From Candidatus Binataceae bacterium (GTDB taxonomy: Bacteria > Desulfobacterota > Binatia > Binatales > Binataceae), in assembly GCA_030041155.1 (NCBI GenBank), contig JASHOJ010000187.1, positions 1,446 through 65,445 on the forward strand: a stretch of 64,000 nt of DNA, given 5' to 3'. This document shows, in pieces, positions 22,156 through 64,000 of this stretch. The translations under genes were made by a program, and so were the position numbers. Below the pieces are notes generated by a model, which was not told the origin of the DNA, did not search any database, and worked only from the letters and a program-made list of their open reading frames with translations. The first letter of the stretch is position 1. The number at the start of each line of letters is the position of its first letter.

Positions 22156-22186
22156 CTGTGGAGTTTTGACGCAAAGGAGCTATACA

Positions 22187-23323: not shown

Positions 23324-23605
23324 GTGGACGACTCAAGCCAGCTTGTCGCACAGTTTGAGAAAAACGCCAAAGAGGAAGTTCGAGTCAGCATCGACGAATT
23401 TCGCGGGCGAAAGATCATCAATATGCGAGTGTATTACCGGTCCGATAGCGGCAAGTGGCTGCCTGGCAAACAGGGGCTTGCGTTGGCTGTTGATCGCTAC
23501 CGTGATCTCGCCGATGCCGTTCTAAGGCTTGGCGAACGGCTGCAGTCGCAAGGCCTGTTGCCAAACGCCTCGATCTCGACCGGCTCACGGACAGAGGGCA
23601 AATAG
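23324..23605 (+). CDS. PC4-like (transcriptional coactivator p15 / YdbC-like) ssDNA-binding protein
   Basis: 'VRVSIDEFRGRKIINMRVYYRSDSGKWLPGKQGLALAVDRYRDLADAV' aligns by eye with human PC4 '[48 protein letters not shown]'. Confidence 0.55.
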   Translation: MDDSSQLVAQFEKNAKEEVRVSIDEFRGRKIINMRVYYRSDSGKWLPGKQGLALAVDRYRDLADAVLRLGERLQSQGLLPNASISTGSRTEGK

Positions 23606-23615
23606 GGGACGGCCT

Positions 23616-41574: not shown

Positions 41575-42042
41575 TTGAATTATACGCTTCAGCAGCTTCG
41601 GGACATTGTCGGTATTTCGGTGGAAACGTTCCGACATTGGCAGCGGGTAATCCCCGCTTTCTCTGCTCGAAAAGGACGTCGGGCGCGTTTTTCAACGGGC
41701 GATCTTATCGCCGCCGCGATAATTCGAGTCCTCACCGACGACTGCGGAATAAAAATTGGCCGACTGAAGGCAGCGAATCAGATCGTCTCGCTGTGCAATG
41801 ATAAATCATGGGCTCTTGATCGCAAGACCCTGGTGGTGAACCCAGCCGAAGGTAGTTGCCAGGTCGTTGGAGATCGGGGCGCTGGGGGCGACGGCTTCGT
41901 TGTCCTCTGCCCTCTCAAACCCATAATGAGCGAGCTGCGAGGCAAACTGTTGGACTCCGAAACGACCCGGGCACAGCGAGCCCTCGCCTTTCCAGTGATC
42001 GAGGTGAAGAGGAAAAACCAGACCTGGAGACGCGGACCATGA
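41575..42042 (+). CDS. MerR/AlpA-like HTH protein (putative regulator)
   Basis: TTG start. 'YTLQQLRDIVGISVETFRHWQR' resembles MerR-superfamily HTHs. ATGA overlap with the downstream MTase. Confidence 0.45.
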   Translation: MNYTLQQLRDIVGISVETFRHWQRVIPAFSARKGRRARFSTGDLIAAAIIRVLTDDCGIKIGRLKAANQIVSLCNDKSWALDRKTLVVNPAEGSCQVVGDRGAGGDGFVVLCPLKPIMSELRGKLLDSETTRAQRALAFPVIEVKRKNQTWRRGP

Positions 42043-45000
42043 ATGGCAGGCATCTCCTGTCCGACGAGTGGAAGGTGCGGCTGGGTCTTTTGAGTCGCTC
42101 CGCCGCTGAATTCTACGAGGAGAACGAATCCGTCGGCGACGTACCATATGCGGGAGCTATCCGTACCGCACTCCGGGAGTTGAACCTCTCGGGATTGTTC
42201 TGCGTGCAGGGCGTTCCGACGATCGTCTTCCTTTCCTTGGATGAATACGACCCGGAGAAGCTCATTGCCGTACATGCCGCTCTCTGGAACCAAGGGCTTG
42301 CGAGCTTGCTTATGGTCGCAAGCGGCGACACACTGCGAGCCTTTTCGTTGGCGAAGAAGCCACTCAGAGAAACTGGTGACGAGTTCGAAAAGCGCTGTCT
42401 GGTGGAAACGCTGGAGGCAGTCGTTGATGTTCTCAGGATACAGAGCGTCTTGTCCGCAGCTGAGTCCGGCAGGCTGTGGCAAGACGAGCCGGAATATTTT
42501 CAGCCGAAGGAACGGGTCGACCAAGTCTTGCTCGACAACCTGACAGAATCCCACCGTCAGCTGTGTGACTTGAGTCTGCCATCTCAAGCCGCTCAAGCTC
42601 TCCTCATACAGGCGATGTTTATCGCCTACTTGGAAGATCGCGGCATAACGTCCCGAGAGTATTTTGCTAGGGGCACTGGCGGTATGGCAGACACCTTCCT
42701 TGAGCTGCTTCGGACCGGGAAGGTTAGCTCACTCAGCTCGCTCTTCGGAAAACTTCGAGAAGACTTCAATGGCGACCTGTTCGTGGCGCCCTGTTCTTTC
42801 GATAGCGGCGCCAAGGCTCCGGCATTGAACAGCGCACATCTTGATGTACTTTCACGGTTCCGCAGCGGTGAGGAGGAAATGGTCGGTGGCCAGCGCAGAT
42901 TTTGGGGATACGACTTCAAATACATCCCGATAGAACTCATCAGTGCTGTCTACGATCGCTTTCTTGAGGAGGAAAAGCAGGAGCGCCGCGAGCAGGGAGC
43001 CTACTACACTCCGATGTTCCTCGCGGATGCAATTGTTTCCCAGGTCTGGGAACTTCTGCCCACAGAATTGAAGGTTAAGTGCACAGTCCTCGATCCCGCA
43101 TGCGGTTCTGGGGTCTTCCTTGTACGGTTTTTTCAAAGATCCTGCGAGTTTTGGCGTTCGACTCACCAAACGAAAACCATCCGGTGGGACGTCCTGCGCT
43201 CAATCTTAGATCGAATCAATGGTTGGGACGTGAACGAGAACGCGGTGCGGGTCGCAGTCTTCTCTCTATATGTGGCGCTAATGGAGGAGGTATCTCCGCC
43301 AGATCTTCAGCTGCTCCTGAAACGAGGAAGAATCCTGCCGGGGCTATGGACTCGAACCATGGTGTGCCAGGACTTCTTCTCAGTACGTGAAGATCGCACG
43401 AATAATTTCGACGTTATTGTTGGCAATCCTCCGTGGAGCAGCCGTCAAGGCTCGGAACGCAGCCACGTGAAGTGGTCCGAAGCGGCGCAGCTCCCGCTAC
43501 CCGCCAAGGAAGCGGCGTGGGCTTTTGCATGGAAAAGCCTTCGTCACATATCACAGGCCGGTATTGTCGGTTTGCTACTTCCCGCCATGGGATTCCTCCA
43601 CAACCAAGCGGAGGACGCGATCGAAGCGCGCAATCAATTCCTAGTAGATGCGCGGATCCGGCGAATCGTCAACTTTGCTGACCTGCGTTTTTTGCTTTTC
43701 GACAAAGCGCAACGAGCAGCCGCGCTCTTAGTCTTCGCGCAAAACTCTGAGTCGAAGCCTGTGTATCGTATTGAATACTGGGTGCCTAAGGCGCGCCCGG
43801 GTCTGTTTATAAAGCGTGTTATTCTGGTAAGTACCGCCGACAAGGCGTCGTTTACCTCCGAGGAAGCCGTTGCTGATCCACTGCTGTTTACAAGGAGAAT
43901 GTGGATGCACGATTCGGAGGCGAAGCTTTTCAACTATTTGAGGCACCTGACACCGCTGAGCCGCTTGGTGAAGGAACATCGCGAGGCACGAACGGAAGAA
44001 CCGTCCACCGGCCTATGGATAATCGGCCAAGGGTTTCAGCCTTTCAACGAGCCCACGAAAAGCGCTCCCAAAGCCAAGGAGAGCGACTATGTAGGCAAGG
44101 TCCCCGATCTGCCGGTAAAACGAATGACCCGGCTCGCGCAGTCAGCAACGGGATTGGCTCCGTGGAGAGATAATTTAGTTCGTAGAAAAGGCTACGAGCG
44201 GGGATTCCACGGGCCCCGTGTGTTGGTCTCTCGCGCAGTTGAAGTCTCGGACAGCAGATTGCGAGCTTCGTATGTAGAGGCGCCGCTGACCTTCCAGGAT
44301 ATCATTCAGGCAATCGCCGTTCCGATAGATGATGTCCCTCGCGCCAAGGTTCTCGCGGCTTTCCTGAATAGTCGGCTTGCAACCTGGTTTGCGTTTCACG
44401 GAACTTCGTCGTTCTCTTCCGATCGTCAGGAAGTCAAGGAAAATCAACTACTGACTTTGCCGTTCCCAGCTGCAGATGAAGTAGAGAAGCCCCAACGGGC
44501 TAGAGCCGCGGCTCAAGGGTTAATCAGTCTCGTCGATGCTTATTTCGGAGACGGGAACACCAGTTTCCGACTCGTCGGTGAGGACAACCCGATTCCTACC
44601 GAATTGGACGACCTTACGTACGACTACTTCGGTCTATCCAAAATCGAGCGAACTCTCGTTGACGACGTTGTTGCGAACATAATCCCGGGGATCCAACCTA
44701 CCCGGACTCGATACCCGGACCTATGGAGGCCCGCTGACGTCTCGGACCGACACCAGTACGCGAGTCTCCTTCTGAGCTTACTCAGAGAGTGGTTCGATCA
44801 AACCTGCGTTGTCGGCGCAAAGTTAGTGGCCAGAAATTCAGACTTGGCAATTTTGAAGCTGTCGCTCGAAAGCAGGAATGGAACTCCAGAGTACACCGAA
44901 GAGGCTGGCGACTCGTTCACCGATGTGCTCACGCGGCTTTCGCGAGAGGTAAACCAGCCGTTGGATCGCAATTTTCAGGTAGTTCCGAATTTCCGGATTT

Positions 45001-45128
45001 TCATCGGCAGAGACCTCTATCTTATCAAGCCGACGCAGAAGCGATATTGGCTAAAGTCCACCGCGATAGCTGACTCGGATTCGATCGCGATGGATCTGCA
45101 GACCGGCGCGGAATTACACCTCGAGTAA
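42039..45128 (+). CDS. N6-adenine DNA methyltransferase, gamma-class, PglX/Type IIG-like (second copy)
   Basis: 'GAYYTPMFLADAIVSQV' (motif X), 'LDPACGSGVFLVRF' (motif I), 'VIVGNPPWSS' (motif IV at 43425-43436). ~560 aa C-terminal putative TRD. Internal Met start at 42039; the track ORF starts at 41856. Confidence 0.8.
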   Translation: MNGRHLLSDEWKVRLGLLSRSAAEFYEENESVGDVPYAGAIRTALRELNLSGLFCVQGVPTIVFLSLDEYDPEKLIAVHAALWNQGLASLLMVASGDTLRAFSLAKKPLRETGDEFEKRCLVETLEAVVDVLRIQSVLSAAESGRLWQDEPEYFQPKERVDQVLLDNLTESHRQLCDLSLPSQAAQALLIQAMFIAYLEDRGITSREYFARGTGGMADTFLELLRTGKVSSLSSLFGKLREDFNGDLFVAPCSFDSGAKAPALNSAHLDVLSRFRSGEEEMVGGQRRFWGYDFKYIPIELISAVYDRFLEEEKQERREQGAYYTPMFLADAIVSQVWELLPTELKVKCTVLDPACGSGVFLVRFFQRSCEFWRSTHQTKTIRWDVLRSILDRINGWDVNENAVRVAVFSLYVALMEEVSPPDLQLLLKRGRILPGLWTRTMVCQDFFSVREDRTNNFDVIVGNPPWSSRQGSERSHVKWSEAAQLPLPAKEAAWAFAWKSLRHISQAGIVGLLLPAMGFLHNQAEDAIEARNQFLVDARIRRIVNFADLRFLLFDKAQRAAALLVFAQNSESKPVYRIEYWVPKARPGLFIKRVILVSTADKASFTSEEAVADPLLFTRRMWMHDSEAKLFNYLRHLTPLSRLVKEHREARTEEPSTGLWIIGQGFQPFNEPTKSAPKAKESDYVGKVPDLPVKRMTRLAQSATGLAPWRDNLVRRKGYERGFHGPRVLVSRAVEVSDSRLRASYVEAPLTFQDIIQAIAVPIDDVPRAKVLAAFLNSRLATWFAFHGTSSFSSDRQEVKENQLLTLPFPAADEVEKPQRARAAAQGLISLVDAYFGDGNTSFRLVGEDNPIPTELDDLTYDYFGLSKIERTLVDDVVANIIPGIQPTRTRYPDLWRPADVSDRHQYASLLLSLLREWFDQTCVVGAKLVARNSDLAILKLSLESRNGTPEYTEEAGDSFTDVLTRLSREVNQPLDRNFQVVPNFRIFIGRDLYLIKPTQKRYWLKSTAIADSDSIAMDLQTGAELHLE

Positions 45129-47646: not shown

Positions 47647-48753
47647 TTGCCGATCTCGGAAGAAATCATCGGAGAGGCGACTGCTCGCTATGAGCGGGAG
47701 CGTGACCGCTATCTCAAACTCGCCGCCCGGGTTGCTGACATTTGTCGGTCTGAAATCGTGGAGGCGAACGCAATACGCGCTCAAGTCACCTGGCGCGCGA
47801 AGAGTGCAAAAAGTTTTGCAGACAAGCTCAGACGTTTTTCAAAAAGGCCCGAAAAGAAATGCGAGACCGTCGACAAAGTTTTCGTTATGGTTAGCGACTT
47901 GGCTGGTGTTCGCATCGCGACCTACCAGCCAGAGACGGAATCGCGCGTCACACAGGAGATTCAAAAGCGCTTTCGAGGGACAGATGGACTTGATGTTAAG
48001 CCGGAAAAAAAAGACAAGGTTGCACAAGGCGGATTTTATCGTGCGACGCACTGTCAGGTGGTGCTTCCAGATGACGACCTGGTGGGGACCTATGAAAACC
48101 TAAAGGCCACGAGTTGTGAAATCCAAGTCTGCTCCATGATGGCGCATGTCTGGAATGAAATTGAGCACGACATCGGCTACAAACCCGAGGGAACGGGCCC
48201 TCAAGAGAAAGAGCACGGCCTTCTTCAAGCACTTGGCCACCTGACTCGTTCGGGCGATGAGATCATCACACGGCTGCTGGAAGCCAATACGGAACGTCTA
48301 CAAGAGCAGCAGGGCGAATTTGAAGATGTGTTTGAGTTTGTCGCCAGGCTCAAACCGCACTTCCCAGATACTGACTTCACTCTATACTCCGGACAGCTCT
48401 TCGATGAGGCGCAGGCGCTTGGATTGTCCTCTTTCGAGAAGTTGAAGGCGGCGCTGGGAGGAGATGCGAACTTCACTCCGGAAGTCGCCAGGAAGAAGCT
48501 GGCAGAATTCAACGACTATCTGACGAAGCGCCAGGAACCAGAGTGGCTTCTCAACGAAGAATCATCAGATGTCGTGCTGATTTTGCTTCTCGAGAAGTTT
48601 GCAAAGCAGATAGAAGAGAACCACCCGGCCGGCCGCGGCATGGGTCGTCCTCCAAGAATCAGAAGCATTGCGACGCGGTACCGACAGTACCGCAACGATC
48701 TCGAGCAAATCACTGTGGCTTCTGACGGAGTCGCCGAGCCTCACCCCGGATGA
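47647..48753 (+). CDS. RelA/SpoT-domain protein, fused toxSAS-antitoxin (CapRel-like) candidate
   Basis: TTG start after an AAGGAGGAGGG RBS. 'DLAGVRIATY', 'GFYRATHCQVVLP', 'EIQVCSMMAHVWNEIEHDIGYK' are synthetase-domain motifs of small alarmone synthetases. 368 aa with a ~190 aa C-terminal extension. Confidence 0.6.
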   Translation: MPISEEIIGEATARYERERDRYLKLAARVADICRSEIVEANAIRAQVTWRAKSAKSFADKLRRFSKRPEKKCETVDKVFVMVSDLAGVRIATYQPETESRVTQEIQKRFRGTDGLDVKPEKKDKVAQGGFYRATHCQVVLPDDDLVGTYENLKATSCEIQVCSMMAHVWNEIEHDIGYKPEGTGPQEKEHGLLQALGHLTRSGDEIITRLLEANTERLQEQQGEFEDVFEFVARLKPHFPDTDFTLYSGQLFDEAQALGLSSFEKLKAALGGDANFTPEVARKKLAEFNDYLTKRQEPEWLLNEESSDVVLILLLEKFAKQIEENHPAGRGMGRPPRIRSIATRYRQYRNDLEQITVASDGVAEPHPG

Positions 48754-50836: not shown

Positions 50837-51964
50837 TCAGTCGGGTTTTCGCGCCGGACTTTCGGCTGAATCCTCGTCTACATCGTCAAAGCCGGGCGGA
50901 AGTGCGGACTCGCGCTCCCGATCTTGTGCAGACCGCCGATTTCTCAGACGTTCGATAAGGCCGCGCCTCATTGAAGTCAGTTCCGCAGGCAGATTGTTCA
51001 CAGCCTCATCCTCGAAGCTTAGGTTCAGGTAATCCAACGCCAGGCTGGCCACTGCCTCGCCTTGACGGAAATCGCGCTTTCGTTTCATCGGGTCGCGCGT
51101 CGGATGCGTCGAAAGCCAGAGTTTGTGCAGGGCAAAAACACGCGGGTCCGGGACGACGAATCGTACCGGGTAACCATTTTCCGCGATTACAACTTGCGTC
51201 GTTCGTGGCGCGTCGGCTATCCAGTCCAACCCCTGCAAGGGTTCCGGTACGAGGTCTTCATTGCTGCCGAGACTCATAGCTGGCCGATTCTCTGAGAGCG
51301 GCGCACGGATGAGGTCGACCATGAAGCCCTTGTTGTTCACGGCGCGGAAAGAACGTTGGCGCGCGGGGCGAAAGGTCTTATCGACCTTTTGAATCAACCC
51401 CAGCAGTCCGGAACTTCGAACGTCACCAGCGATCTCAAGCTCCGATTTTGTGTGTAGGAGCGTATCGAGGTCGTTCGTTTGAAGAAGGCCGGCCTTAAGC
51501 TGAACGCCGGCAGCCATCTCGTAGGCATAAATGGCGTGGCTGCCGAGGACGATCAGGTGTGTGCCCAAGACGCCCTTGGAGTCGAGCAGTCTTACGATAT
51601 CGGCGGCGATCCTCGGAACGCGATTGACCCCAGCCGCGACGCAGAACTTGGATCGCGCAGCGATCTCGCCTTCGAGGGCTTTGATCTGCTCTCTAAGTTC
51701 GTTCTTCCTTGCGGTGAACCGCTGAAGGACTTCCTCCGTTTTCGCCGAGCGCGGGCCCAGCGACTGTTGGTGCCCCTCGCGGTCGAGCGTCTTTACCAGA
51801 TACTCTTTGGAGCCAACCCGCTTCCAATGGAGGCCACCCCTGAATTTCGCGTACTCTTGTTGGAGATCAGTGAAGTGTTGATAGAGCTGGACAGCATCGA
51901 CCGCTACCCTCCGCTGCTCCGCAGTTAATTCCTTGAATTTCAGGAGTTTTCCTCTCCAAATCAA
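50837..51964 (-). CDS. Nucleotidyltransferase-fold protein (AbiEii/GSU2403-like, putative)
   Basis: 'LIVLGSHAIYAYE...LLQTNDLDTLL' fits the GS...DxD minimal nucleotidyltransferase pattern. Family placement is tentative. Confidence 0.35.
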   Translation of the reverse strand: MIWRGKLLKFKELTAEQRRVAVDAVQLYQHFTDLQQEYAKFRGGLHWKRVGSKEYLVKTLDREGHQQSLGPRSAKTEEVLQRFTARKNELREQIKALEGEIAARSKFCVAAGVNRVPRIAADIVRLLDSKGVLGTHLIVLGSHAIYAYEMAAGVQLKAGLLQTNDLDTLLHTKSELEIAGDVRSSGLLGLIQKVDKTFRPARQRSFRAVNNKGFMVDLIRAPLSENRPAMSLGSNEDLVPEPLQGLDWIADAPRTTQVVIAENGYPVRFVVPDPRVFALHKLWLSTHPTRDPMKRKRDFRQGEAVASLALDYLNLSFEDEAVNNLPAELTSMRRGLIERLRNRRSAQDRERESALPPGFDDVDEDSAESPARKPD

Positions 51965-55522: not shown

Positions 55523-57592
55523 TCAAGGTAGACAGACGTTATGACCATTAATTAGGCATTGTTGGGGCGGCGTCATTACCGGCGCCGCCAAGCCTATTAT
55601 CTCGCTGACGCTGTTGCTGAGTCCGTTCGTCAGAAAAACGTTGCCTGAAGCATCCAAAGCCAGCCCGTTGATGTTGTCAAACGGTGCGCCCGAGGGAGCG
55701 AAGTTATATCCAGTAGCGTAGTTGCTGGCGCCAGTCAGCTCGGCCACGCTGTTGCTGGCGAGATTCGCGACGAAGACATTGGCAGAACTGTCTACCACCA
55801 ACCATCTGGGATCGTCGAAAGCCGCTCCTGCGGGGGCGAAGTTGAGTCCGGTGGCATAGCTGCTGGCGGCAGTCAGCTCGCTCACGCTATTGCCGATGAC
55901 GTTCGCAACGAAAATGTCGCCCGCCGCATCCAACGCGAGCGATGCAGGATAATCAAACGCGGCGCTCGACGGAGCGAAGTTGAGTCCGGTGGCATAGCCG
56001 CTGGCGGCAGTCAATTCGCTCACGCTAAATGGGGGGTTAGCGTAGTTTACGACAAAGGCGTTGTTAGAGGCGTCTAACGCTAGCGATAGAGGATAGTCAA
56101 TATATGCGGCTGAAGGAGTGAAGTTGAGTCCACTGGTATAGCCGCTGATGGCGGTCAACTCGCTGACGCTGTTCGTGTCAAGATTTGCGACGAAAAGGTT
56201 GCCGGAAGTATCCAACCCCATCATGTCAGGAAGATTCATGGCTGCGCCAGACGGAGTGAAGTTGAGTCCGCTGGCATAGCCGCTGGCGGCGGTTAACTCG
56301 CTCACGCTGTTACTAGTAGAGTTAGTCAAAAAAAGGTCATCCGAAATATCGATTACCAGGTACTGTACATTGTCCAAGGCTGCGTCTGAAGGAGCGAAGC
56401 TTAATCCGACTGTATAGCTGCTGGCCGCGGTCAGCTCGCTGACAGTGTTAGTGGCGAGATTCCCTGTGAAAAGGTTGCCGGCGTTATCCATAGCCAGTGG
56501 GCCGGGGTACTGCAGATTCGCACCCGAAGGCGCGAAGTTGAGCACCAACTCCCAATTATCGGGAGCCGCGGAGAGCGCGGGTGCGAGCAAGCTCAGACCC
56601 GTTGGCGGTGTGACTCCGAAGATCGTGCTCACGTTGGAGCCTGGGTTGGCTACTATCGCGTGAACCGCCGCCAAAGTGTCAGATATCGCGGGCGTGGCTG
56701 AGCAATTAGTGCCGTTCCAACTGGCTCCGGCCGTGGCCCCACAAAAAAGCTGCGCGCATTGATTCGATGATGGTCCGGCGGTGTTGATACACGAGGCGAC
56801 GATGTTGGCCAGCGTGTTCAGCCGCTCCAGCGCGTCGCAATTGATCGGCGGTGATCCACCCTCGCAATCCGCCGCCGTGGGCAGAAAGCTGGCCGGGACT
56901 CCGCTGTCGCTCGCGCTGGTGCCCACGCTGGTTACCAGGTCGTTCATTGACTGGTTGATCGCCTTGCTGAAACCCGCGGCATTAGTCGAGGATGTGCCCA
57001 ATTGTGTTCCGGTAGTATCGATGAATTGAGTCAGAGCCCATTGCGCGGCCACCGTGGTCAGTCCATTTACAGTCACATAAGTAGTTCGGCTGAGGTTGTT
57101 ACAGGGTCCGGCTAGCGCCATCAGGCCGATTGCAGAGTTGTTTCCACTGCCGGGATTTCCGCCGCTGGCAACTATGTAAGTAGCCACCGCTTCATTGCCT
57201 GCTGGACAGGTGTACTCAAGGTTGAAATCGCCGGAGGAGTCTGAAGAGCTAGTCCCCAGAGCCATCGCGCCAGCTCCGTAACATGACGAGCCTGAGCAGC
57301 TATTGGCAGGGCCGGCGGCGTAGAGCGTCACCATTGCGCCGGCTATGCCGCCGGCACCACCTTGGACGGAGCCGGAAATCGAAAGTGGAGTCGGAGTTGG
57401 AGTCGAGGTAGGAGTGGGGGTTGGGCTCGCACTCGGCGATCGCGAACCGCTGCTGCCACAGCCGTACACCGTGGCAAGGCTCGCGGTCAGGATCATGGTG
57501 AATAGCACCTGCAGATTTACCCGGCTTGTGAACGGCCGCCATACGATTTTTTGAAAACGAGCGTCGCACCCCTTCGCCATTTTCCACCTCAC
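55523..57592 (-). CDS. Secreted NHL-repeat beta-propeller protein with Pro/Thr linker
   Basis: N-terminal signal/lipoprotein-like segment and a 'PTPTPTSTPTPTP' linker. About 7 tandem ~46-aa repeats (..GLALDASGNLFVAN..NSVSELTAASGY..). The start may be the internal Met at 57496. Confidence 0.65.
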   Translation of the reverse strand: MRWKMAKGCDARFQKIVWRPFTSRVNLQVLFTMILTASLATVYGCGSSGSRSPSASPTPTPTSTPTPTPLSISGSVQGGAGGIAGAMVTLYAAGPANSCSGSSCYGAGAMALGTSSSDSSGDFNLEYTCPAGNEAVATYIVASGGNPGSGNNSAIGLMALAGPCNNLSRTTYVTVNGLTTVAAQWALTQFIDTTGTQLGTSSTNAAGFSKAINQSMNDLVTSVGTSASDSGVPASFLPTAADCEGGSPPINCDALERLNTLANIVASCINTAGPSSNQCAQLFCGATAGASWNGTNCSATPAISDTLAAVHAIVANPGSNVSTIFGVTPPTGLSLLAPALSAAPDNWELVLNFAPSGANLQYPGPLAMDNAGNLFTGNLATNTVSELTAASSYTVGLSFAPSDAALDNVQYLVIDISDDLFLTNSTSNSVSELTAASGYASGLNFTPSGAAMNLPDMMGLDTSGNLFVANLDTNSVSELTAISGYTSGLNFTPSAAYIDYPLSLALDASNNAFVVNYANPPFSVSELTAASGYATGLNFAPSSAAFDYPASLALDAAGDIFVANVIGNSVSELTAASSYATGLNFAPAGAAFDDPRWLVVDSSANVFVANLASNSVAELTGASNYATGYNFAPSGAPFDNINGLALDASGNVFLTNGLSNSVSEIIGLAAPVMTPPQQCLINGHNVCLP

Positions 57593-58588: not shown

Positions 58589-59071
58589 ATGCAACGCGTA
58601 ACAATAACGCTCGACGATGATCTGGTGGCGCAGCTTGATCGGTTTATCAACGGTCGCGGCTATCAGAATCGTTCCGAAGCGATCCGCGACCTGGCTCGTG
58701 CGGGTGTTCAACTGGCAACGGAACAAGCTTATCCAGAAGCGCAATGCGCGGCGGCAGTAATTTACGTTTATGATCATGAGACCCGCGAGCTCCCGAAGCG
58801 GCTGACCCGCAGTTATCACAACCATAGCGACCTTTCGGTGGCGACCTTTCATATCCATTTGAATCGCGAGAGCTGTATGGAAGTGACGGCGCTAAGAGGA
58901 CGCACCGGCGAGGTGCGGCATTTCGCCGAACATGTTATTGCAGAGCGTGGGGTGCGGCACGGCAACATCGTCCTTGTGCCAATGCCATCCGGAAAACGCG
59001 CGCATCGAAATGGCGCGAAAGGGATTTTCGCTTCGAAATCCCTCAGCCACCGGATAGTGCGAACCGCCTGA
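58589..59071 (+). CDS. nikR: Nickel-responsive regulator NikR
   Basis: 'MQRVTITLDDDLVAQLDRFINGRGYQNRSEAIRDLAR' ribbon-helix-helix domain. C-terminal 'YHNHSDL...CMEV' is a metal-site-like pattern. RBS AGAGAGGGG. Confidence 0.7.
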   Translation: MQRVTITLDDDLVAQLDRFINGRGYQNRSEAIRDLARAGVQLATEQAYPEAQCAAAVIYVYDHETRELPKRLTRSYHNHSDLSVATFHIHLNRESCMEVTALRGRTGEVRHFAEHVIAERGVRHGNIVLVPMPSGKRAHRNGAKGIFASKSLSHRIVRTA

Positions 59072-59099: not shown

Positions 59100-60926
59100 A
59101 TGAGAAAAAAGCCTTTGCCAACGGAAAGGCGCATCTTGCGGCCCGGTCCACCCAACAGAGACATCAGGGATCAGGTTAGCCTTGACGTGTGGGGATTTTG
59201 CGACACGCATTTCGAATTCAAGTCTTCGGGCGCGGTCGAACTTGCTGGAGATCGTTACGCTCTCAGCGGGCACGAGCTTCCAGCTTTGAAACCTTGGATG
59301 TCCGGAATTCTGGGTGTTCCGCTGGACGGCAGCTCGCGGTTTGCGCCGGTATACCCGCCGGAGATTCCGGAGCCGATCCGTTCGTCGAATTTCTTGAAGG
59401 AGATAAATGGGTTCCTGACGGCAGACCAGCTCTCTGAGGATCCTGAAATCAGACTGCGTCACGGCCATGGCCACACGCAAGAAGAAATGTATGAGATCAA
59501 GCACGGACGACTTGACCGAATTCCAGACATCGTAGTCTTCCCGAGCGATGATAGGCAGGTGCGTCTGCTGGTCGAAGCAGCCGTTCGCCACAACGTATGC
59601 CTAATTCCCTACGGTGGAGGCACCAACGTTACAGGCGCGTTGCGATGTCCGTTGACCGAATCCCGAACCATCGTGTCAGTCGATATGGAGCGGATGAATC
59701 GCATTCTCTGGATCGATCCAATCAACAGAATGGCGCAAATCCAGGCGGGTGCTATCGGCCGTCAACTCGCCGCGCAACTTGCGGAGCACGGTTTCACGAT
59801 GGGCCACGAGCCTGACAGCATTGAATTTTCAACGCTGGGTGGATGGATAGCGACCAACGCCAGCGGCATGAAAAAGAATAAGTACGGCAATATTGAAGAT
59901 TTGGTGCTCGCTGTCGACGTCGTTACAGCGATGGGCGAGCTTAAAAGGACTTCCGTCCCTCCTCGCGAGTCCGTTGGGCCCGATCTCCGTCGCTCGATTT
60001 TCGGATCAGAGGGCAACTTTGGAATCATTACGTCGGCAGCGGTAAAAGTCTTTCCGTTGCCCGAGGTTCAGCTCTACGGCTCGGTCATCTTTCCATCGTT
60101 CGAAGAAGGATTCGATTTTTTGTACGAGCTGACTCAGCAAGGGGATCTACCTGCGAGCGTCCGCTTGGTTGACAATTTGCAATTCCAATTCAGCCAGGCC
60201 CTCAAACCGCGCGCCGCGGGATGGAAAGCCTATAAGAGTGCTGCCGAGCGACTCTTTGTCACGCGCATAAAACGATTTGACCCGGCGCGGATGGTGGCGT
60301 GCACTCTGGTGTTTGAGGGCACGAAGGACGAGGTCCAAAGACAACAGAATCTCGTCTATAGTCTTGCTCGCCGGCACGGCGGAATGGCAGCAGGAAGTGA
60401 AAATGGCGAGCGCGGCTATCAGCTCACCTTCAGCATCGCCTATATCCGCGACTTCGTGATGAACCACTACATCATAGCCGAGTCGTTCGAGACCTCAGTC
60501 GCTTGGAGCGACGCATTAAGGCTCTGCGAGAACGTCAAACGACGCGTCACCGAAGAACACCGGCGACGCGCGCTGCCTGGCAACCCGTTTATTACGTGCC
60601 GCATCACTCAACTCTACCAGACCGGAGTATGCGTCTATTTCTACTTCGCATTCTACTTCAAAGGCATAGAAAGACCGGCGCAAGTCTATCTTGACATCGA
60701 AGATGCCGCTCGCGATGAGATACTGAAGTCGGGAGGGTCCCTTTCCCATCATCACGGCATCGGCAAGCTCAGAAGAAAGTTCGTGCCGCGGATAATGTCG
60801 GCGCCCTCGCTTTACTGGAATTCCGAGCTCAAGAGGGCGATTGATCCAACCAACGTGTTTGGATGCGGCAATTTGGATCCGGCGCCGACGAAAGACGAGC
60901 TTGCAAGCTCGGCCCGTCAACTTTAA
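59100..60926 (+). CDS. FAD-linked oxidase, alkyl-dihydroxyacetonephosphate synthase (AGPS)-like
   Basis: 608 aa with a ~130 aa N-terminal extension before the PCMH FAD domain ('IPYGGGTNVTGAL'). C-terminal 'HHHGIGKLRRKF' as in AGPS. Adjacent to an acyltransferase. Confidence 0.55.
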   Translation: MRKKPLPTERRILRPGPPNRDIRDQVSLDVWGFCDTHFEFKSSGAVELAGDRYALSGHELPALKPWMSGILGVPLDGSSRFAPVYPPEIPEPIRSSNFLKEINGFLTADQLSEDPEIRLRHGHGHTQEEMYEIKHGRLDRIPDIVVFPSDDRQVRLLVEAAVRHNVCLIPYGGGTNVTGALRCPLTESRTIVSVDMERMNRILWIDPINRMAQIQAGAIGRQLAAQLAEHGFTMGHEPDSIEFSTLGGWIATNASGMKKNKYGNIEDLVLAVDVVTAMGELKRTSVPPRESVGPDLRRSIFGSEGNFGIITSAAVKVFPLPEVQLYGSVIFPSFEEGFDFLYELTQQGDLPASVRLVDNLQFQFSQALKPRAAGWKAYKSAAERLFVTRIKRFDPARMVACTLVFEGTKDEVQRQQNLVYSLARRHGGMAAGSENGERGYQLTFSIAYIRDFVMNHYIIAESFETSVAWSDALRLCENVKRRVTEEHRRRALPGNPFITCRITQLYQTGVCVYFYFAFYFKGIERPAQVYLDIEDAARDEILKSGGSLSHHHGIGKLRRKFVPRIMSAPSLYWNSELKRAIDPTNVFGCGNLDPAPTKDELASSARQL

Positions 60927-60947
60927 CGTCGGACCTTCAGGAGATTC

Positions 60948-62435
60948 ATGGAACCGTCCGGACGCGGCGCCTCGACTCTCACACGTATGGAAGCCCTTGA
61001 CGAAGCAAACTCGAGAGAAACGTGTATTGGCGGTCGTTCCGCGCCGAAACCGCGGGGCATCAGTTGGGCAATCCGGCAGCCCAATGGAACGGCTGTTATC
61101 CGGCTCTTTGGTTATGTCGTCGCGAAGGTGCTTCGCCGCGCCGCGGATTCGGTAACCGTCGACTTGGCCTCATTTGAATCAGCTTTGACGCGAGTTCCCG
61201 AGGGAACGCTAGTGGTTATCGCACCGTCCCATCGAAGCTACATGGATTTTCTGCTGTGCTCGTATCTCTTCTTCGATCAGCCGCAATTGGGCGTTGCGAT
61301 ACCCCACATCGCTGCTGCGGAAGAGTTCTCGCGCATACCCGTCATTGGCCGGCTTTTTGAGAAGGCTCAGGCGTTTTTCGTCAAGCGCGGCATGCGGCGC
61401 AAGGATTACGCAGAATTGAGAGAGCGCATCGCCGACCTGGTTAAACGTCGCCAGACATTGCAGGTGTTCATAGAAGGTACGCGAAGCCGCTCTCGTCAAT
61501 TCTTACGGCCGAAGCACGGCCTTCTTAGATGCCTTCAGGAAACCGGACAGCCCGCGACGATTCTGCCGGTAGCGCTCAGCTATGACCGTGTAACGGAAGA
61601 GGCAAGTTTCCTTCGCGAACTTGCGGGCCGCTCGAAGCCAAAGATGAGACTTCGCACCCTCTCGATATGGACCACTCGTCTAATGCGAGGAAAGATAAAG
61701 ATTGGGCGCGTTCACATCGCATGCGGTACACCGATCATGTTGGACGAGTTTGCCCGACTGAGAGATGTCGCCGAAGCAATCAACGGTCAACTTCAAGCGC
61801 AAACAGTGACCACCACGCTTCATCTCGGGTCTTTTCTCAAGGCTAATCAAATTGACGGCGACTTGGACTGGCTCTCATCAATGCTCAAGCTAAGGGGTGG
61901 ACAGGTCCTAACAAGCGAAAGCGATTTCGGCCGGGCCATTTCGCCTCTGCTTGAAAGATGTATGAGATACCATTGGATTCACCTGTTCTATGCAGAAGCT
62001 CGCACCCTATTTCCCGACAACGCTGCAATCCAGCATCATATTTCCCTGAATGGTTATCTCCAAAGCCCAGCCTTGACCGAACTACCACCTTCCGCTGATC
62101 CGCGGGTTCTCCAGTTGTTGCACGCACTGTTCGAGCCGATCTGCCAGAATTACGTGATGGTCATCGACAGCCTGGGAAAGCCTGGCGATTCGTTAGAGGG
62201 CATCAACGCCGCCAGTGTCCTTTTGAAAAATCCTTCTTCCTTTCTGCCCGACATAGAAGCTGCGTTTGATGCCCTGGTGAAGCGCAGAATTCTAGCGCAT
62301 GCGCAAGAACCGCGGAGCTACCGATGGGGCCGATGCGCCCCAGAGCTCGCGGACTTCAGACGCTCTTGCGTGTTCCGCTATCCCTTGATGGCGGTGGACG
62401 GTGCTCCTCGCCAGACGGAGGAATCCGAAGCCTAG
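60948..62435 (+). CDS. Glycerol-3-phosphate/DHAP acyltransferase family protein (PlsB/GNPAT-like)
   Basis: Motif I 'VIAPSHRSYMDF' (H-x4-D) and motif III 'VFIEGTRSRS'. 495 aa. Confidence 0.6.
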   Translation: MEPSGRGASTLTRMEALDEANSRETCIGGRSAPKPRGISWAIRQPNGTAVIRLFGYVVAKVLRRAADSVTVDLASFESALTRVPEGTLVVIAPSHRSYMDFLLCSYLFFDQPQLGVAIPHIAAAEEFSRIPVIGRLFEKAQAFFVKRGMRRKDYAELRERIADLVKRRQTLQVFIEGTRSRSRQFLRPKHGLLRCLQETGQPATILPVALSYDRVTEEASFLRELAGRSKPKMRLRTLSIWTTRLMRGKIKIGRVHIACGTPIMLDEFARLRDVAEAINGQLQAQTVTTTLHLGSFLKANQIDGDLDWLSSMLKLRGGQVLTSESDFGRAISPLLERCMRYHWIHLFYAEARTLFPDNAAIQHHISLNGYLQSPALTELPPSADPRVLQLLHALFEPICQNYVMVIDSLGKPGDSLEGINAASVLLKNPSSFLPDIEAAFDALVKRRILAHAQEPRSYRWGRCAPELADFRRSCVFRYPLMAVDGAPRQTEESEA

Positions 62436-63471
62436 ACTGAAGTTGTGCGCTGAGGGTCCGCAGAGTATGTGGCGATGAGGGCCGCCCTTTCTGCTCGATC
62501 TGTCTCACCGCTTCGACAATACCTTCGTTGATTGGAGTAGAACATCCGCGCTGTATTCCGCGGCGAACAATCTCACCATTTAGGTAGTCGATCTCGATCG
62601 GCCGTCCCCGTTCAATCGCGTAGAGCATCGATGATCGCATGCGCCGGAATTTGAAGCCGACCGCAAGCAGAGCTGCGTGCTTGAGCAAGAGCGACAATGC
62701 GAACCGAGCGCTCCTCTCGCGTGGTTTCATAGCAACCTTGTCGATTGCTAGCGTTCCGGCGACTGGTTGCATCTCAATCCCCTCAAGCCGGGCAATTTGG
62801 GCAACCTCGGCGAATACTTCTAATGCTAATCGACGCACGCTCGCGTACCTGAGCAATCTGCCAAGTGCTTCGCCACCAATTGCTCCGAACGGACTCGTAA
62901 CGCAGTTGATCGCAAGCTTGGACCATCGAACACCGCGCAAGTCGTCTACAACTTCAACTTCCGAGACCGCGCGCAGAACTTCGGCGATCCTTTCCGGTGA
63001 GGGACACGAAGCCGACGTCCCGCCGATCTGGAGGCGGCCCTTCGACGTACGCCGATAGCGGCCCGGCTGATCCATCGCGGCACCCCATCCGACGACGCAG
63101 CCGATAACGCGCTCGCCGGCTATCGCGATCGCGCGTTCCTCGGCCAGGCCGTTCTGGCATGTAACCACGATGCCGTCCGGTGCCAGCGTCGGCAGTACGT
63201 CCCGAAGCGAGGTTTCCAGCGCGATCGCGGGCGTGGCTGAGATCACAAGGTCGAACGGCGCAGTGGCTTGTTGCGGAGTCGCGATTGGCGCCTGGCAAGG
63301 TGAGATCGTCTCTGCGGGGCCATCAAGCTCCGCCAGGCGGAAGCCCTCGCGTTGCAGTGCTGTCTCTATATTTGGGTTTTTGACGATCGGGGTAATGTCA
63401 TAGCCCGCGCGAGTCAGCCGCGCGGCAATCACTCCTCCGACCGCACCGCACCCAAGAACCGCTATTCGCAT
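62356..63471 (-). CDS. panE: 2-dehydropantoate 2-reductase (ketopantoate reductase, PanE/ApbA family)
   Basis: 'MRIAVLGCGAVGGVIAARLTRAGYD' Rossmann N-terminus (internal Met of ORF 62356..63675). The C-terminal ~60 aa are low-complexity and overlap the convergent gene, so the true stop is unclear. Confidence 0.6.
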   Translation of the reverse strand: MRIAVLGCGAVGGVIAARLTRAGYDITPIVKNPNIETALQREGFRLAELDGPAETISPCQAPIATPQQATAPFDLVISATPAIALETSLRDVLPTLAPDGIVVTCQNGLAEERAIAIAGERVIGCVVGWGAAMDQPGRYRRTSKGRLQIGGTSASCPSPERIAEVLRAVSEVEVVDDLRGVRWSKLAINCVTSPFGAIGGEALGRLLRYASVRRLALEVFAEVAQIARLEGIEMQPVAGTLAIDKVAMKPRERSARFALSLLLKHAALLAVGFKFRRMRSSMLYAIERGRPIEIDYLNGEIVRRGIQRGCSTPINEGIVEAVRQIEQKGRPSSPHTLRTLSAQLQSRLRIPPSGEEHRPPPSRDSGTRKSV

Positions 63472-63698: not shown

Positions 63699-64000
63699 CT
63701 AATCAAGGCCGCGAGTGGCGATCACTTCCTTAGCCGGCGAGCGGTCTCCGGTGCAGTTGATCATCCGCGGCGCATCGATAAGACGAAGGCGGAATCCTAG
63801 CTCTCTGTAGAGCAGGATAATCCTATCGGTTGCTTGATTGGAAAGGACCGCGGGGCCTTTATGCCGCGCTATTCACTCGGCCAGGCGAACCTGATCCTTC
63901 CAGTCGAATCTTTCTTTCGAGTAAGACCTGAATTCCACGTCATAAGGCGGGTCAGCATAGATGAAGTCGTCTGGCAAGGTCACAAGCTTATCGAAGTCGC
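63699..64000 (-). pseudogene. Dam-like N6-adenine DNA methyltransferase, 3' part, with in-frame TGA stop (N-terminus beyond window)
   Basis: Minus-strand translation 'DFDKLVTLPDDFIYADPPYDVEFRSYSKERFDWKDQVRLAE*IARHKGPAVLSNQATDRIILLYRELGFRLRLIDAPRMIN...' has the DPPY motif and a Dam C-terminus. An in-frame TGA lies at plus-strand 63873-63875. Confidence 0.55.

What the first reader, a model, noticed from the sequence alone, without database searches (positions are those of the whole stretch)
59100..62435. Ether-lipid (plasmalogen-type) biosynthesis gene pair: AGPS-like FAD oxidase plus DHAP/G3P acyltransferase
A 608-aa FAD-linked oxidase has the N-terminal extension and C-terminal HHHGIG characteristic of alkyl-DHAP synthase. 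It is followed after 21 nt by a PlsB/GNPAT-family acyltransferase (H-x4-D and FxEGTRS motifs). This is the peroxisomal ether-lipid pathway pairing, reported in only a few bacterial lineages (for example myxobacteria). It hints at ether-lipid production by this organism.
Basis: partly seen in the sequence, partly recalled or inferred. Interest (0 to 1): 0.6.

Follow-up and report, generated by a model that had tools for sequence, protein, structure and literature searches.

The report
Bacterial ether-lipid gene module, FAR-less variant
Two adjacent genes in an uncultured Binataceae-like soil bacterium encode the enzymes that make the ether bond of ether lipids (as in animal peroxisomes and Myxococcus), in a stripped-down layout that lacks the usual fatty-alcohol-forming domain and has a different candidate reductase next door.

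Summary
ORFs lie at 59100-60926 (608 aa) and 60948-62435 (495 aa), 21 nt apart, and carry the quoted motifs.

The first protein is an alkyl-DHAP synthase (AGPS). It scores 577 bits (E 4e-172, 45.7% identity) against solved mammalian AGPS, versus 106 bits for glycolate oxidase. The AGPS-specific N-terminal domain, the catalytic Arg/Arg/Tyr and the HHH loop are all conserved.

The second protein belongs to the acyltransferase clade found in FAR-acyltransferase fusions (the GNPAT-like half of Myxococcus MXAN_1675). It is not PlsB.

So the ether-lipid reading is supported, but the system is already known (M. xanthus MXAN_1676-1675-1674). AGPS homologues are also widespread in Myxococcota, Acidobacteriota, Gemmatimonadota, Leptospirales and Binatota.

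Three things are new here:
- The lineage is Binataceae-like.
- The FAR domain and the MXAN_1674-type reductase are missing.
- A convergent PanE/ApbA-family reductase (62356-63471) is conserved beside the pair in seven contexts whose outer flanks all differ.

About 52 of 80 AGPS loci carry an adjacent NAD(P)H reductase, drawn from three unrelated families. I therefore infer that the PanE-like gene is the missing acyl/alkyl-DHAP reductase (about 40% confidence).

No vinyl-ether desaturase or FAR lies in the window, so 'plasmalogen-type' is unproven and the alcohol source is unknown.

The parts
58589..59071 (+). NikR-family ribbon-helix-helix regulator (160 aa from ATG 58589; the mechanical ORF starts at 58490). 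It lies 28 nt upstream of AGPS on the same strand and may be co-transcribed with it.
   Evidence: Pfam RHH_1 + NikR_C and NCBIfam NikR 192 bits vs cut-off 83. A Shine-Dalgarno sequence GAGAGGGG precedes ATG 58589. NikR sits in the same position upstream of AGPS in L083. NikR-like genes lie 2 kb downstream of AGPS in L007 and L019. A role in the module is not shown.
59100..60926 (+). Alkyl-dihydroxyacetone-phosphate synthase (AGPS, EC 2.5.1.26 by homology), 608 aa
   Evidence: PDB phmmer: guinea-pig AGPS 4bby E 4.2e-172 over residues 26-592; Dictyostelium ADPS 2uuu E 2.9e-93; the next family reaches only 1.9e-29. Identity to guinea-pig AGPS is 45.7%. R355, R450, Y513 and H550-552 are conserved. 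Pfam FAD_binding_4 + FAD-oxidase_C.
60927..60947 (+). 21-nt spacer with ribosome-binding site AGGAG (60939-60943), consistent with an AGPS-AT operon
   Evidence: Read directly from the sequence. No terminator-like site lies between the genes on the + strand.
60948..62435 (+). Stand-alone GNPAT-like (FARAT-type) acyltransferase, 495 aa, inferred DHAP acyltransferase; it has no FAR domain
   Evidence: Pfam PF01553 at 81-211. Motif blocks H95x4D100, AFFVKR142, FIEGTRSRS174-182 and LPVALSYDR. The protein is 45% identical to the AT half of the L005 FAR-AT fusion. Its closest relatives are about 13 stand-alone ATs, then PF07993+PF01553 fusions. In the NJ tree it is nested among fusions and far from GPAT. 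PlsB models score far below cut-off.
62356..63471 (-). PanE/ApbA-family NAD(P)H oxidoreductase (371 aa), convergent with the AT and overlapping its 3' end by 80 nt; candidate acyl/alkyl-DHAP reductase (inferred)
   Evidence: Pfam ApbA + ApbA_C. Gene call of 371 aa in L081. It is a conserved convergent neighbour of AGPS-AT in the window/L081, L001, L002, L082, L083/84, L085 and L091, whose outer flanks all differ. The subfamily has a conserved hydrophobic insertion of about 20 aa, predicted helical, and an invariant RRxRSSMLYA motif.

Best explanation
The two genes form an operon for the first two committed steps of aerobic, peroxisome-type ether-lipid synthesis. The acyltransferase acylates DHAP to give 1-acyl-DHAP. 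AGPS, a non-redox flavoenzyme that forms a covalent flavin-N5/DHAP intermediate, then swaps the acyl chain for a long-chain fatty alcohol to give 1-O-alkyl-DHAP. The convergent PanE/ApbA-family reductase probably performs the third step, the NADPH-dependent reduction of alkyl-DHAP to 1-O-alkyl-sn-glycerol-3-phosphate, which then enters ordinary phospholipid assembly as a plasmanyl (alkyl-acyl) lipid.

What is shown: the family identities, intact catalytic residues, operon geometry and conserved three-gene neighbourhood.

What is inferred: DHAP specificity of the acyltransferase (from its partnership with AGPS and its position in the FARAT/GNPAT clade), and the reductase role of the PanE-like gene (sub-claim confidence about 0.4).

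What is unknown: the source of the fatty alcohol, since no FAR lies in the 64 kb, and whether a vinyl-ether desaturase exists elsewhere. The host is an uncultured Binataceae-like (Binatota) bacterium.
For: AGPS identity: (577 bits and 45.7% identity to solved AGPS; R355/R450/Y513/HHH conserved; the mutant structures 4bc7 and 4bca differ from wild type exactly at the aligned R and Y).

AT identity.

Genetic precedent: deleting MXAN_1676 reduces ether lipids in M. xanthus, and the MXAN_1676-1675-1674 operon has the layout AGPS / FAR-AT / NAD-epimerase-family (PMC9131029, PMC13012113). The same layout occurs in 23 genome loci from several phyla.

Conserved AGPS->AT<-PanE trio in seven contexts with different outer flanks.

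The 'AGPS + acyltransferase + NAD(P)H reductase' logic recurs with non-homologous parts. Acidobacteriota have AGPS, a small PlsC-type AT and a classical SDR. Terriglobia and Leptospirales have AGPS followed by a classical SDR. About 52 of 80 loci have an adjacent reductase.

PanE-like features that would suit an amphiphilic phosphorylated substrate: a conserved hydrophobic helix insertion and an Arg cluster beside the substrate-binding SS motif.

Nearest named genomes are Ca. Binataceae at 70-73% identity.
Against: There is no biochemical or lipid evidence for this organism or for any Binatota. The Binatota genome survey does not mention ether lipids.

No fatty acyl-CoA reductase lies in the window, so one substrate of AGPS has no visible source.

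In M. xanthus the AGPS route is only a minor contributor to ether lipids (PMC9131029).

Against the PanE sub-claim: the gene is on the opposite strand, so it is not co-transcribed with the pair. Its 52-58% identical homologues in Polyangia sit in an unrelated context. It passes NCBI's PanE/ApbA subfamily cut-off (186 vs 141 bits), so it could simply be a ketopantoate reductase. All seven contexts come from one family-level clade.

I could not compare the acyltransferase directly with a eukaryotic GNPAT sequence.
Confidence: 0.8

Rival explanations
1. The pair makes alkyl-DHAP as proposed, but the PanE-like gene is an ordinary ketopantoate (or other 2-keto-acid) reductase that merely sits next door. 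In that case the alkyl-DHAP reduction is done by an unlinked short-chain dehydrogenase.
For: The gene is convergent, so not co-transcribed. It exceeds the TIGR00745 PanE/ApbA subfamily cut-off and keeps the family's catalytic Lys, Glu and Asn. Homologues at 52-58% identity in Polyangia are not near ether-lipid genes. Every other lineage uses SDR-type neighbours.
Against: The trio is kept in seven contexts while everything outside it changes. No MXAN_1674-like or classical SDR lies near AGPS in the window, although about 52 of 80 AGPS loci have a reductase at that position. All equivalog-level PanE models are below cut-off. The subfamily-specific hydrophobic insertion and altered substrate motif argue against a plain ketopantoate reductase.
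Confidence: 0.5
2. The module is a decaying remnant. Having lost the FAR domain and the MXAN_1674-type reductase, it no longer makes ether lipids.
For: The FAR domain is absent here although present in the sister fusion proteins. No FAR lies anywhere in the 64 kb.
Against: Both ORFs are full length with every catalytic motif intact. The stand-alone form persists at 60-87% identity in about 13 protein clusters and seven genomic contexts, which implies purifying selection. Animals also keep FAR and GNPAT as separate genes (PMC13012113), so an unlinked FAR is a normal arrangement. Other FAR-less AGPS-AT layouts exist (L086, L087).
Confidence: 0.07
3. The oxidase is a GlcD/D-lactate-dehydrogenase-type enzyme and the acyltransferase is the cell's ordinary PlsB-type glycerol-3-phosphate acyltransferase. 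On this reading their adjacency has nothing to do with ether lipids.
For: NCBIfam's best-named hits are GlcD (154.8 bits) and PlsB (131 bits), and NCBI annotates relatives as 'FAD-binding oxidoreductase' and '1-acyl-sn-glycerol-3-phosphate acyltransferase'.
Against: Those scores are far below the family cut-offs (568 and 610 bits); NCBIfam simply has no AGPS model. Solved AGPS scores 577 bits vs 106 for glycolate oxidase, over the full length including the AGPS-only N-terminal domain. AGPS-specific catalytic residues are conserved. The acyltransferase's nearest relatives are FAR-AT fusions encoded next to AGPS.
Confidence: 0.02

Closest known systems
Myxococcus xanthus MXAN_1676-MXAN_1675-MXAN_1674 operon (AGPS / FAR-AT 'FARAT' / NAD-dependent epimerase-family protein)
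   Same: An AGPS orthologue comes first and a GNPAT-like acyltransferase follows immediately on the same strand. An NAD(P)H oxidoreductase is the third neighbour. The AT is 45% identical to the AT half of a Myxococcota fusion with this layout (L005).
   Different: The acyltransferase has no N-terminal FAR (NAD_binding_4) domain. No MXAN_1674-like SDR lies anywhere in the window. The third gene belongs to the unrelated PanE/ApbA family and is convergent. The host is Binataceae-like rather than Myxococcota.
Mammalian peroxisomal pathway: GNPAT + AGPS + acyl/alkyl-DHAP reductase (DHRS7B/PexRAP) + FAR1
   Same: AGPS is 45.7% identical to guinea-pig AGPS with the same catalytic residues. The acyltransferase and FAR are separate genes, as in animals (PMC13012113). 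The reaction order is the same by inference.
   Different: There are no peroxisomal targeting signals and none are expected. The genes are clustered. The candidate reductase is PanE-type rather than a classical SDR. No PEDS1 desaturase is in evidence.
Tetrahymena TtFARAT and other eukaryotic or bacterial FAR-acyltransferase fusions
   Same: The acyltransferase domain belongs to the same clade.
   Different: This protein is the acyltransferase half only. In the NJ tree its clade is nested among fusions, which suggests secondary loss or splitting of FAR (no bootstrap support computed).
Acidobacteriota / Terriglobia / Leptospirales AGPS loci (not described in the papers I could search)
   Same: AGPS is followed by an acyltransferase and/or an NAD(P)H reductase, the same three-step logic.
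   Different: Those loci use a small 284-aa PlsC-type acyltransferase and a classical adh_short SDR. Neither is homologous to the window's partners.
Ketopantoate reductase PanE/ApbA and D-mandelate dehydrogenase family
   Same: The neighbour gene has the same fold (Foldseek TM 0.87-0.89 on targets) and the same catalytic Lys, Glu and Asn.
   Different: It shares only 20-28% identity with solved members. It has an extra hydrophobic helix of about 20 residues before the substrate motif, and the motif reads RRxRSSMLYA where canonical enzymes have SSMLQD (the canonical motif is from memory).

Membership tests
AGPS / alkyl-DHAP synthase (EC 2.5.1.26) | VAO-type FAD-binding domain plus FAD-oxidase C-terminal (cap) domain | tested here: met
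   Pfam PF01565 (142-285, E 8e-38) and PF02913 (320-590, E 3e-36)
AGPS / alkyl-DHAP synthase (EC 2.5.1.26) | AGPS-specific N-terminal domain (the extra domain with the gating helix, absent from GlcD/D-LDH) | tested here: met
   The alignment to guinea-pig AGPS starts at query 26 = chain 91, and to Dictyostelium ADPS at query 20 = chain 10, so it covers the roughly 115 residues before the FAD domain. GlcD/LDH hits begin only at query ~100-145.
AGPS / alkyl-DHAP synthase (EC 2.5.1.26) | Catalytic residues shown by mutagenesis (Dictyostelium R352, R447, Y508; guinea-pig R419, Y578) and the HHH loop | tested here: met
   R355, R450, Y513 and H550-H552. Residue list from PMC3509576. Mutant chains 4bc7 (R->H) and 4bca (Y->F) differ from wild type at the aligned positions.
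   576.9 bits (AGPS) and 316.5 bits (Dictyostelium ADPS) vs 105.7 (glycolate oxidase 9qgz), 80.9 (LctD) and 76.4 (D-LDH)
AGPS / alkyl-DHAP synthase (EC 2.5.1.26) | Acyl-DHAP + fatty alcohol -> alkyl-DHAP activity | not testable with these tools
   Requires an enzyme assay
GNPAT-like / FARAT-type DHAP acyltransferase | GPAT/AGPAT-superfamily acyltransferase domain with motif blocks I-IV (HX4D; GAFFxRR-like; FxEGxRSR; proline-containing block IV) | tested here: met
   PF01553 E 1e-22. H95RSYMD100, AFFVKR142-147, FIEGTRSRS174-182 and LPVALSYDR.
GNPAT-like / FARAT-type DHAP acyltransferase | Groups with the acyltransferase half of FAR-AT fusions rather than with PlsB/GPAT | tested here: met
   Beyond its own clade, the top hits are PF07993+PF01553 fusions at 45-53% identity. 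The NJ tree places it inside the fusion clade, with long branches to the 9vuq and 8e4y GPATs. PlsB equivalog models score 131 and 122 bits vs cut-offs of 610 and 618.
GNPAT-like / FARAT-type DHAP acyltransferase | Direct sequence relationship to eukaryotic GNPAT | not tested
   No GNPAT sequence or structure was available in the tools (one search found only GPATs; one search found no supplements). The link rests on PMC13012113 and PMC9131029, which treat the MXAN_1675 AT domain as GNPAT-like.
GNPAT-like / FARAT-type DHAP acyltransferase | Preference for DHAP over glycerol-3-phosphate | not testable with these tools
   No sequence signature is known to me. The preference is inferred from the operon with AGPS.
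FARAT bifunctional protein (MXAN_1675 / TtFARAT) | N-terminal fatty acyl-CoA reductase domain (Pfam NAD_binding_4) fused to the acyltransferase | tested here: not met
   Only PF01553 is found in the 495-aa protein. The alignment to the L005 fusion starts at fusion residue 528. AGPS and AT are only 21 nt apart, which leaves no room for a FAR gene. No FAR-like sequence is found in the window. It is therefore not a FARAT.
MXAN_1676-1675-1674-type operon | Third gene encoding an MXAN_1674-like extended SDR (NAD-dependent epimerase/dehydratase family) | tested here: not met
   tblastn with the L005 SDR against the window found nothing, whereas it is present in 23 of 80 loci.
Plasmalogen (vinyl-ether) pathway | Plasmanylethanolamine desaturase CarF/PEDS1 (aerobic) or PlsA/PlsR (anaerobic) | tested here: inconclusive
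   None was found among the Pfam-scanned ORFs of the window. The rest of the genome is not available.
Ketopantoate reductase PanE/ApbA (neighbour gene) | ApbA N- and C-terminal domains, family-level score, catalytic Lys/Glu | tested here: met
   PF02558 + PF08546. TIGR00745 subfamily 185.9 vs cut-off 141.35. K185 and E293 are invariant. Foldseek top hits are KPR and D-mandelate DH.
Ketopantoate reductase PanE/ApbA (neighbour gene) | Equivalog-level match to a characterised 2-dehydropantoate 2-reductase | tested here: not met
   All equivalog models are below cut-off (for example NF005091 at 154 vs 252 and NF006083 at 120 vs 371). Identity to solved KPRs is 20-28%. The insertion and motif change are shown.

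The most novel reading that the evidence does not exclude
The bacterial acyl/alkyl-DHAP reductase step has no assigned enzyme in the literature I could search. It may be filled by at least three unrelated enzyme families through non-orthologous displacement: MXAN_1674-like extended SDRs, classical SDRs and, in Binataceae, a PanE/ApbA-subfamily enzyme. The PanE-type enzyme carries a lipid-facing helix insertion and an Arg-rich phosphate-binding motif, and this would be a new activity for the ketopantoate-reductase family. As a corollary, FAR-less Binataceae may obtain the fatty alcohol from outside the module, either from an unlinked FAR or, more speculatively, from the long-chain alkane hydroxylation reported for Binatota.
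Probability: 0.35. Interest if true: 0.6.

Novelty: new variant of a known kind. Interest (0 to 1): 0.4.

Why it matters
Ether lipids are used as biomarkers and bear on the 'lipid divide' and on the proposed bacterial origin of eukaryotic plasmalogen synthesis. Showing that uncultured Binatota carry an intact AGPS module widens the list of likely soil producers of alkyl glycerol ether lipids.

The FAR-less acyltransferase is a bacterial parallel to the separate GNPAT and FAR genes of animals. That is relevant to how the fused and split forms evolved.

The most useful result is the comparative pattern: AGPS is nearly always next to an NAD(P)H reductase, but from three unrelated families. This gives concrete, testable candidates for the unassigned bacterial acyl/alkyl-DHAP reductase, including the PanE-like gene in this window.

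Tried and rejected
- **FAR in the window.** I searched with the FAR domain of a Myxococcota fusion by tblastn (best E 0.98) and ran Pfam on essentially all substantial ORFs. Nothing was found.
- **MXAN_1674-like SDR, Binataceae-type epimerase, small PlsC-type AT, classical SDR and DS-like genes in the window.** All absent.
- **Is the PanE-like subfamily tied to ether-lipid genes outside Binataceae?** It is not. Polyangia homologues sit beside a 2-oxoacid dehydrogenase complex.
- **Are the epimerases next to PanE in L083 and L091 MXAN_1674 orthologues?** No, they share only about 21% identity.
- **Promoter and terminator scan of 57.5-64 kb.** Counts were no higher than in shuffled sequence.
- **tRNA and Rfam scans to locate a mobile-element boundary.** No hits.
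- **Exact look-up for an organism name.** The source contig is a 65.7-kb NCBI record, but no name is attached.
- **Primary AGPS structure paper.** I tried to read it by DOI, but it is not held, so I used the review PMC3509576 and the PDB mutant chains instead.
- **Eukaryotic GNPAT sequence in the PNAS 2026 supplements.** None are held.
- **Foldseek of the PanE-like model.** It returned only KPR and D-mandelate dehydrogenase folds, so it says nothing about substrate.
- **Is the ether-lipid module cargo of the adjacent conjugative/defence element?** Considered but not decided. In other genomes the module has chromosomal-looking flanks such as ATP synthase and COX2.


Full report
**1. Observation**

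One search lists an ATG-initiated ORF at 59100-60926 (+, 608 aa) and another at 60948-62435 (+, 495 aa). The stop TAA (60924-60926) and the next ATG (60948) are separated by 21 nt that contain AGGAG at 60939-60943. The oxidase has Pfam FAD_binding_4 (142-285) and FAD-oxidase_C (320-590), leaving about 140 residues N-terminal to the flavin domain, and HHHGIG at 550-555. The second protein has Pfam Acyltransferase PF01553 (81-211) with H95-RSYM-D100 and F174-IEGTRSRS.

**2. The oxidase is AGPS**

Against all solved structures the protein scores as follows:

| Match | Score |
|---|---|
| Guinea-pig AGPS, residues 26-592 | E 4.2e-172, 577 bits |
| Dictyostelium ADPS | E 2.9e-93 |
| Best non-AGPS hit, a glycolate oxidase | E 1.9e-29, 106 bits |
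| D-lactate dehydrogenases | about 76-81 bits |

Identity to guinea-pig AGPS is 45.7% over 565 aligned residues. The alignment includes the N-terminal domain that is specific to AGPS.

The residues shown by mutagenesis to be important in Dictyostelium ADPS are R352, R447 and Y508, with Y508 the proposed catalytic base (PMC3509576). They correspond to R355, R450 and Y513 here. The PDB mutant chains 4bc7 (R to H) and 4bca (Y to F) differ from wild type at exactly the positions aligned to R355 and Y513, and the HHH loop is H550-H552.

NCBIfam names GlcD as the best hit, but at 155 bits against a cut-off of 568. That library simply has no AGPS model, which explains why NCBI annotates relatives as 'FAD-binding oxidoreductase'.

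**3. The acyltransferase**

The PlsB equivalog models score 131 and 122 bits against cut-offs of 610 and 618, so it is not PlsB. Its closest relatives are about 13 stand-alone proteins of 480-520 aa at 60-87% identity. Below roughly 53% identity the hits become proteins of 770-865 aa that carry Pfam NAD_binding_4 (fatty acyl-CoA reductase, FAR) fused to the acyltransferase domain.

In locus L005 (Myxococcota) the gene after AGPS is such a fusion (NAD_binding_4 at 111-379, Acyltransferase at 593-716). The window protein aligns at 45% identity to its C-terminal half only, from fusion residue 528. A neighbour-joining tree of the acyltransferase cores puts the window protein and its stand-alone relatives in one clade nested among fusions, far from the two solved GPATs. 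I computed no bootstrap support, so the tree is indicative only.

The literature treats this acyltransferase domain (MXAN_1675, TtFARAT) as GNPAT-like and reports eukaryotic GNPAT/FARAT branching next to Myxococcia sequences (PMC13012113, PMC9131029). I could not compare it directly with a eukaryotic GNPAT because none is available in the tools.

**4. Relation to what is known**

[quoted passage not shown] Deleting MXAN_1676 lowers ether lipids, although ElbD is the major route (PMC9131029; PMC13012113).

I fetched 80 genome loci encoding AGPS relatives and classified what follows AGPS:

| What follows AGPS | Loci | Lineages |
|---|---|---|
| FAR-AT + MXAN_1674-like SDR (full myxobacterial layout) | 23 | Myxococcota, Gemmatimonadales, Woeseiaceae, an Acidimicrobiia genome and others |
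| The same layout, truncated by contig ends | 7 | |
| Small PlsC-type acyltransferase (284 aa) + classical adh_short SDR | 14 | Acidobacteriota |
| Small acyltransferase only | 13 | Acidobacteriota |
| Classical SDR directly | 10 | Terriglobia |
| More divergent classical SDR directly | 3 | Leptospirales / Spirochaetia |
| Stand-alone AT + PanE-like (the window's arrangement) | 2 | Candidatus Binataceae |

AGPS homologues are therefore far from rare in genomes. There are more than 5,800 protein clusters with E <= 0.001, many auto-named AGPS by JGI. The nearest named genomes to the window are Binataceae MAGs at 70-73% identity. The Binatota genome survey does not mention ether lipids.

**5. What is different here**

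(a) *No FAR.* The acyltransferase lacks the domain. The 21-nt spacer leaves no room for a separate gene. Neither tblastn with a FAR domain nor Pfam scans of the window's ORFs find one in 64 kb.

(b) *No MXAN_1674-like SDR, no classical SDR and no Binataceae-type epimerase in the window*.

(c) *A conserved PanE-like neighbour.* A PanE/ApbA-family reductase (62356-63471, minus strand, 371 aa by the gene call in L081) converges on the acyltransferase and overlaps its 3' end by 80 nt. The overlapping tails of both proteins are unconserved.

The trio AGPS -> AT <- PanE recurs in the window/L081, L001, L002, L082, L083/L084, L085 and L091, and the genes outside it differ each time:
- L082: ATP synthase and aldo-keto reductase on one side, COX2 on the other.
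- L083: NikR on one side, epimerase and deoxyhypusine-synthase-like genes on the other.
- L085: ferredoxin and a PQQ propeller.
- L091: epimerase and adh_short on one side, a luciferase-like oxidoreductase on the other.

**6. Is the PanE-like gene part of the pathway?**

*For.* The position after AGPS or its acyltransferase is occupied by an NAD(P)H oxidoreductase in about 52 of 80 loci, from three unrelated families. That matches the third peroxisomal step, acyl/alkyl-DHAP reductase, which is performed by classical SDRs in mammals and yeast. In Binataceae the PanE-like gene is the only reductase consistently at that position.

The PanE-like subfamily also differs from solved ketopantoate reductases (20-28% identity). 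It has an insertion of about 20 residues, RFALSLLLKHAALLAVGFKF, predicted as a helix (residues 259-274; model mean pLDDT 87.8, with the insertion region at about 75-87). It has an invariant RRxRSSMLYA(L/I)ERG motif where, from memory, canonical enzymes read SSMLQD. A hydrophobic helix next to an arginine cluster at the substrate site would suit an amphiphilic phosphate ester. All equivalog-level PanE models are below cut-off.

*Against.* The gene is on the opposite strand. It passes the broad PanE/ApbA subfamily cut-off and keeps the catalytic Lys and Glu. Homologues at 52-58% identity in Polyangia carry the same insertion and motif but are not near ether-lipid genes. All seven contexts come from one family-level clade.

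I put this sub-claim at about 0.4. I found no paper assigning a bacterial acyl/alkyl-DHAP reductase.

**7. Mechanism**

- *Shown by homology and conserved residues:* AGPS chemistry. Acyl-DHAP binds, Tyr abstracts the pro-R proton, a flavin-N5 adduct forms, the fatty acid leaves, and a fatty alcohol adds to give alkyl-DHAP (PMC3509576).
- *Inferred:* the acyltransferase supplies acyl-DHAP. The PanE-like enzyme reduces the C2 ketone. The product enters phospholipid assembly as a plasmanyl lipid.
- *Unknown:* the fatty alcohol source. An unlinked FAR is the simplest answer, as in animals, where FAR and GNPAT are separate (PMC13012113). Binatota genomes are reported to encode long-chain alkane hydroxylases (PMC8262859), which could in principle supply alcohols, but nothing here tests that.
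- *Unsupported by the window:* vinyl-ether (plasmalogen) formation. No CarF/PEDS1 or PlsAR was found.
- *Regulation:* a NikR-family gene ends 28 nt before AGPS on the same strand and occupies the same position in L083, so NikR-AGPS-AT may be one transcript. The promoter and terminator scans were uninformative.

**8. Setting**

Most of the window is mobile DNA (details are in the items noticed in passing): a conjugative module at 1-21 kb and a defence island at 22-51 kb. The ether-lipid module lies beyond the island and is followed by a fragment that looks like a Dam methylase. In other genomes the module has ordinary chromosomal neighbours, so I do not claim it is cargo of the element.

**9. 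Verdict**

- 'Plasmalogen-type' is not shown.
- The genes are not rare in genomes.
- This copy is a FAR-less variant with a different candidate reductase.

It is a new variant of a known kind. Interest is moderate (0.4). The system itself is known, but the lineage is new for ether lipids, and the comparative pattern yields testable candidates for an unassigned bacterial enzyme step.

Noticed in passing
window 1-21100: Conjugative-transfer module: SSB (888-1280), TrwC relaxase (2770-5553), type IV coupling protein (5557-7425), S26 peptidase, TrbI, CagX/VirB9, VirB8, TrbL/VirB6, a VirB4-like ATPase (14085-16745), TrbC/VirB2 pilin (16864-17292), VirB11 (17720-18673) and ArdC anti-restriction protein (20141-21091). 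No tRNA or attachment site was found, so ICE versus plasmid is undecided.
   Followed up: partly
window 21253-51964: Defence island: BrnT/CopG toxin-antitoxin (21253-21902), DndB (22082-23308), HKD+Snf2 helicase (23529-26840), Type IIG/ISP restriction-modification enzyme (26822-30193), PADLOC candidate PDC-S68 RecD-like protein (30229-34017, 1341 bits), a second Type IIG enzyme (41856-45128), an FRG-domain protein (38304-39119), a RelA/SpoT-like nucleotidyltransferase (47647-48753) and NTP_transf_8 (50837-51964).
   Followed up: partly
window 34153-38260: Three co-directional genes inside the defence island: two with no Pfam or PADLOC match (34153-35298, 35268-36407), followed by an Hsp70/MreB-like ATPase (36404-38260). 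This could be an uncharacterised defence system.
   Followed up: no
window 58589-59071; L083 3422-3898; L007 13655-14086; L019 ~8727-9155: A NikR-family regulator lies immediately upstream of AGPS in the window and in L083, and about 2 kb downstream of AGPS in two Pyrinomonadaceae loci. I cannot tell whether this reflects regulation of ether-lipid genes or coincidence with nickel-uptake genes (a TonB receptor follows in L007).
   Followed up: partly
L007 6146-8283 and about 15 other Acidobacteriota loci; L083 8331-10321: A deoxyhypusine-synthase-like gene paired with an NAD epimerase-family gene recurs 1-4 kb upstream of AGPS in Acidobacteriota (DS 78-92% identity to the L007 copy, mostly 86-92%; epimerase 64-83%) and next to the PanE-like gene in a Binataceae-like contig. 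The link to AGPS spans two phyla and is unexplained.
   Followed up: partly
L007 9980-13506 and 36 further loci: Acidobacteriota, Terriglobia and Leptospirales have their own AGPS layouts: AGPS + 284-aa PlsC-type acyltransferase + classical adh_short SDR, or AGPS + SDR alone. These were not described in the papers I could search. They suggest that the acyltransferase and reductase partners of AGPS have been replaced repeatedly.
   Followed up: partly
P0124, P0126, P0128, P0132, P0133: JGI's automatic names for the stand-alone, FAR-less acyltransferases are 'fatty acyl-CoA reductase' or 'alcohol-forming fatty acyl-CoA reductase'. These are evidently transferred from FAR-AT fusions, so they are likely misannotations of proteins that have only the acyltransferase domain.
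   Followed up: no
window 55523-57592 (-): A 689-aa predicted secreted protein with a Ser/Pro/Thr-rich linker after the N-terminal hydrophobic segment and about seven repeats of an 'SVSELTAAS(G/S)Y..GLNF.PS' unit. The only Pfam hit is a faint NHL-repeat match, so its function is unknown.
   Followed up: no
window 63876-64000 (-), continuing in L081 3064-3366: Fragment of a gene with a DPPY motif that looks like a Dam-type DNA adenine methyltransferase, directly beyond the PanE-like gene. The ether-lipid module is thus bracketed by restriction/modification-type genes on both sides.
   Followed up: no
L082 6997-7974; L091 11201-14532: In two related contigs an aldo-keto reductase lies directly upstream of AGPS (L082), or a luciferase-like oxidoreductase and an aldehyde dehydrogenase lie within 5 kb (L091). 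These could bear on fatty aldehyde or alcohol supply in FAR-less lineages. Not analysed.
   Followed up: no
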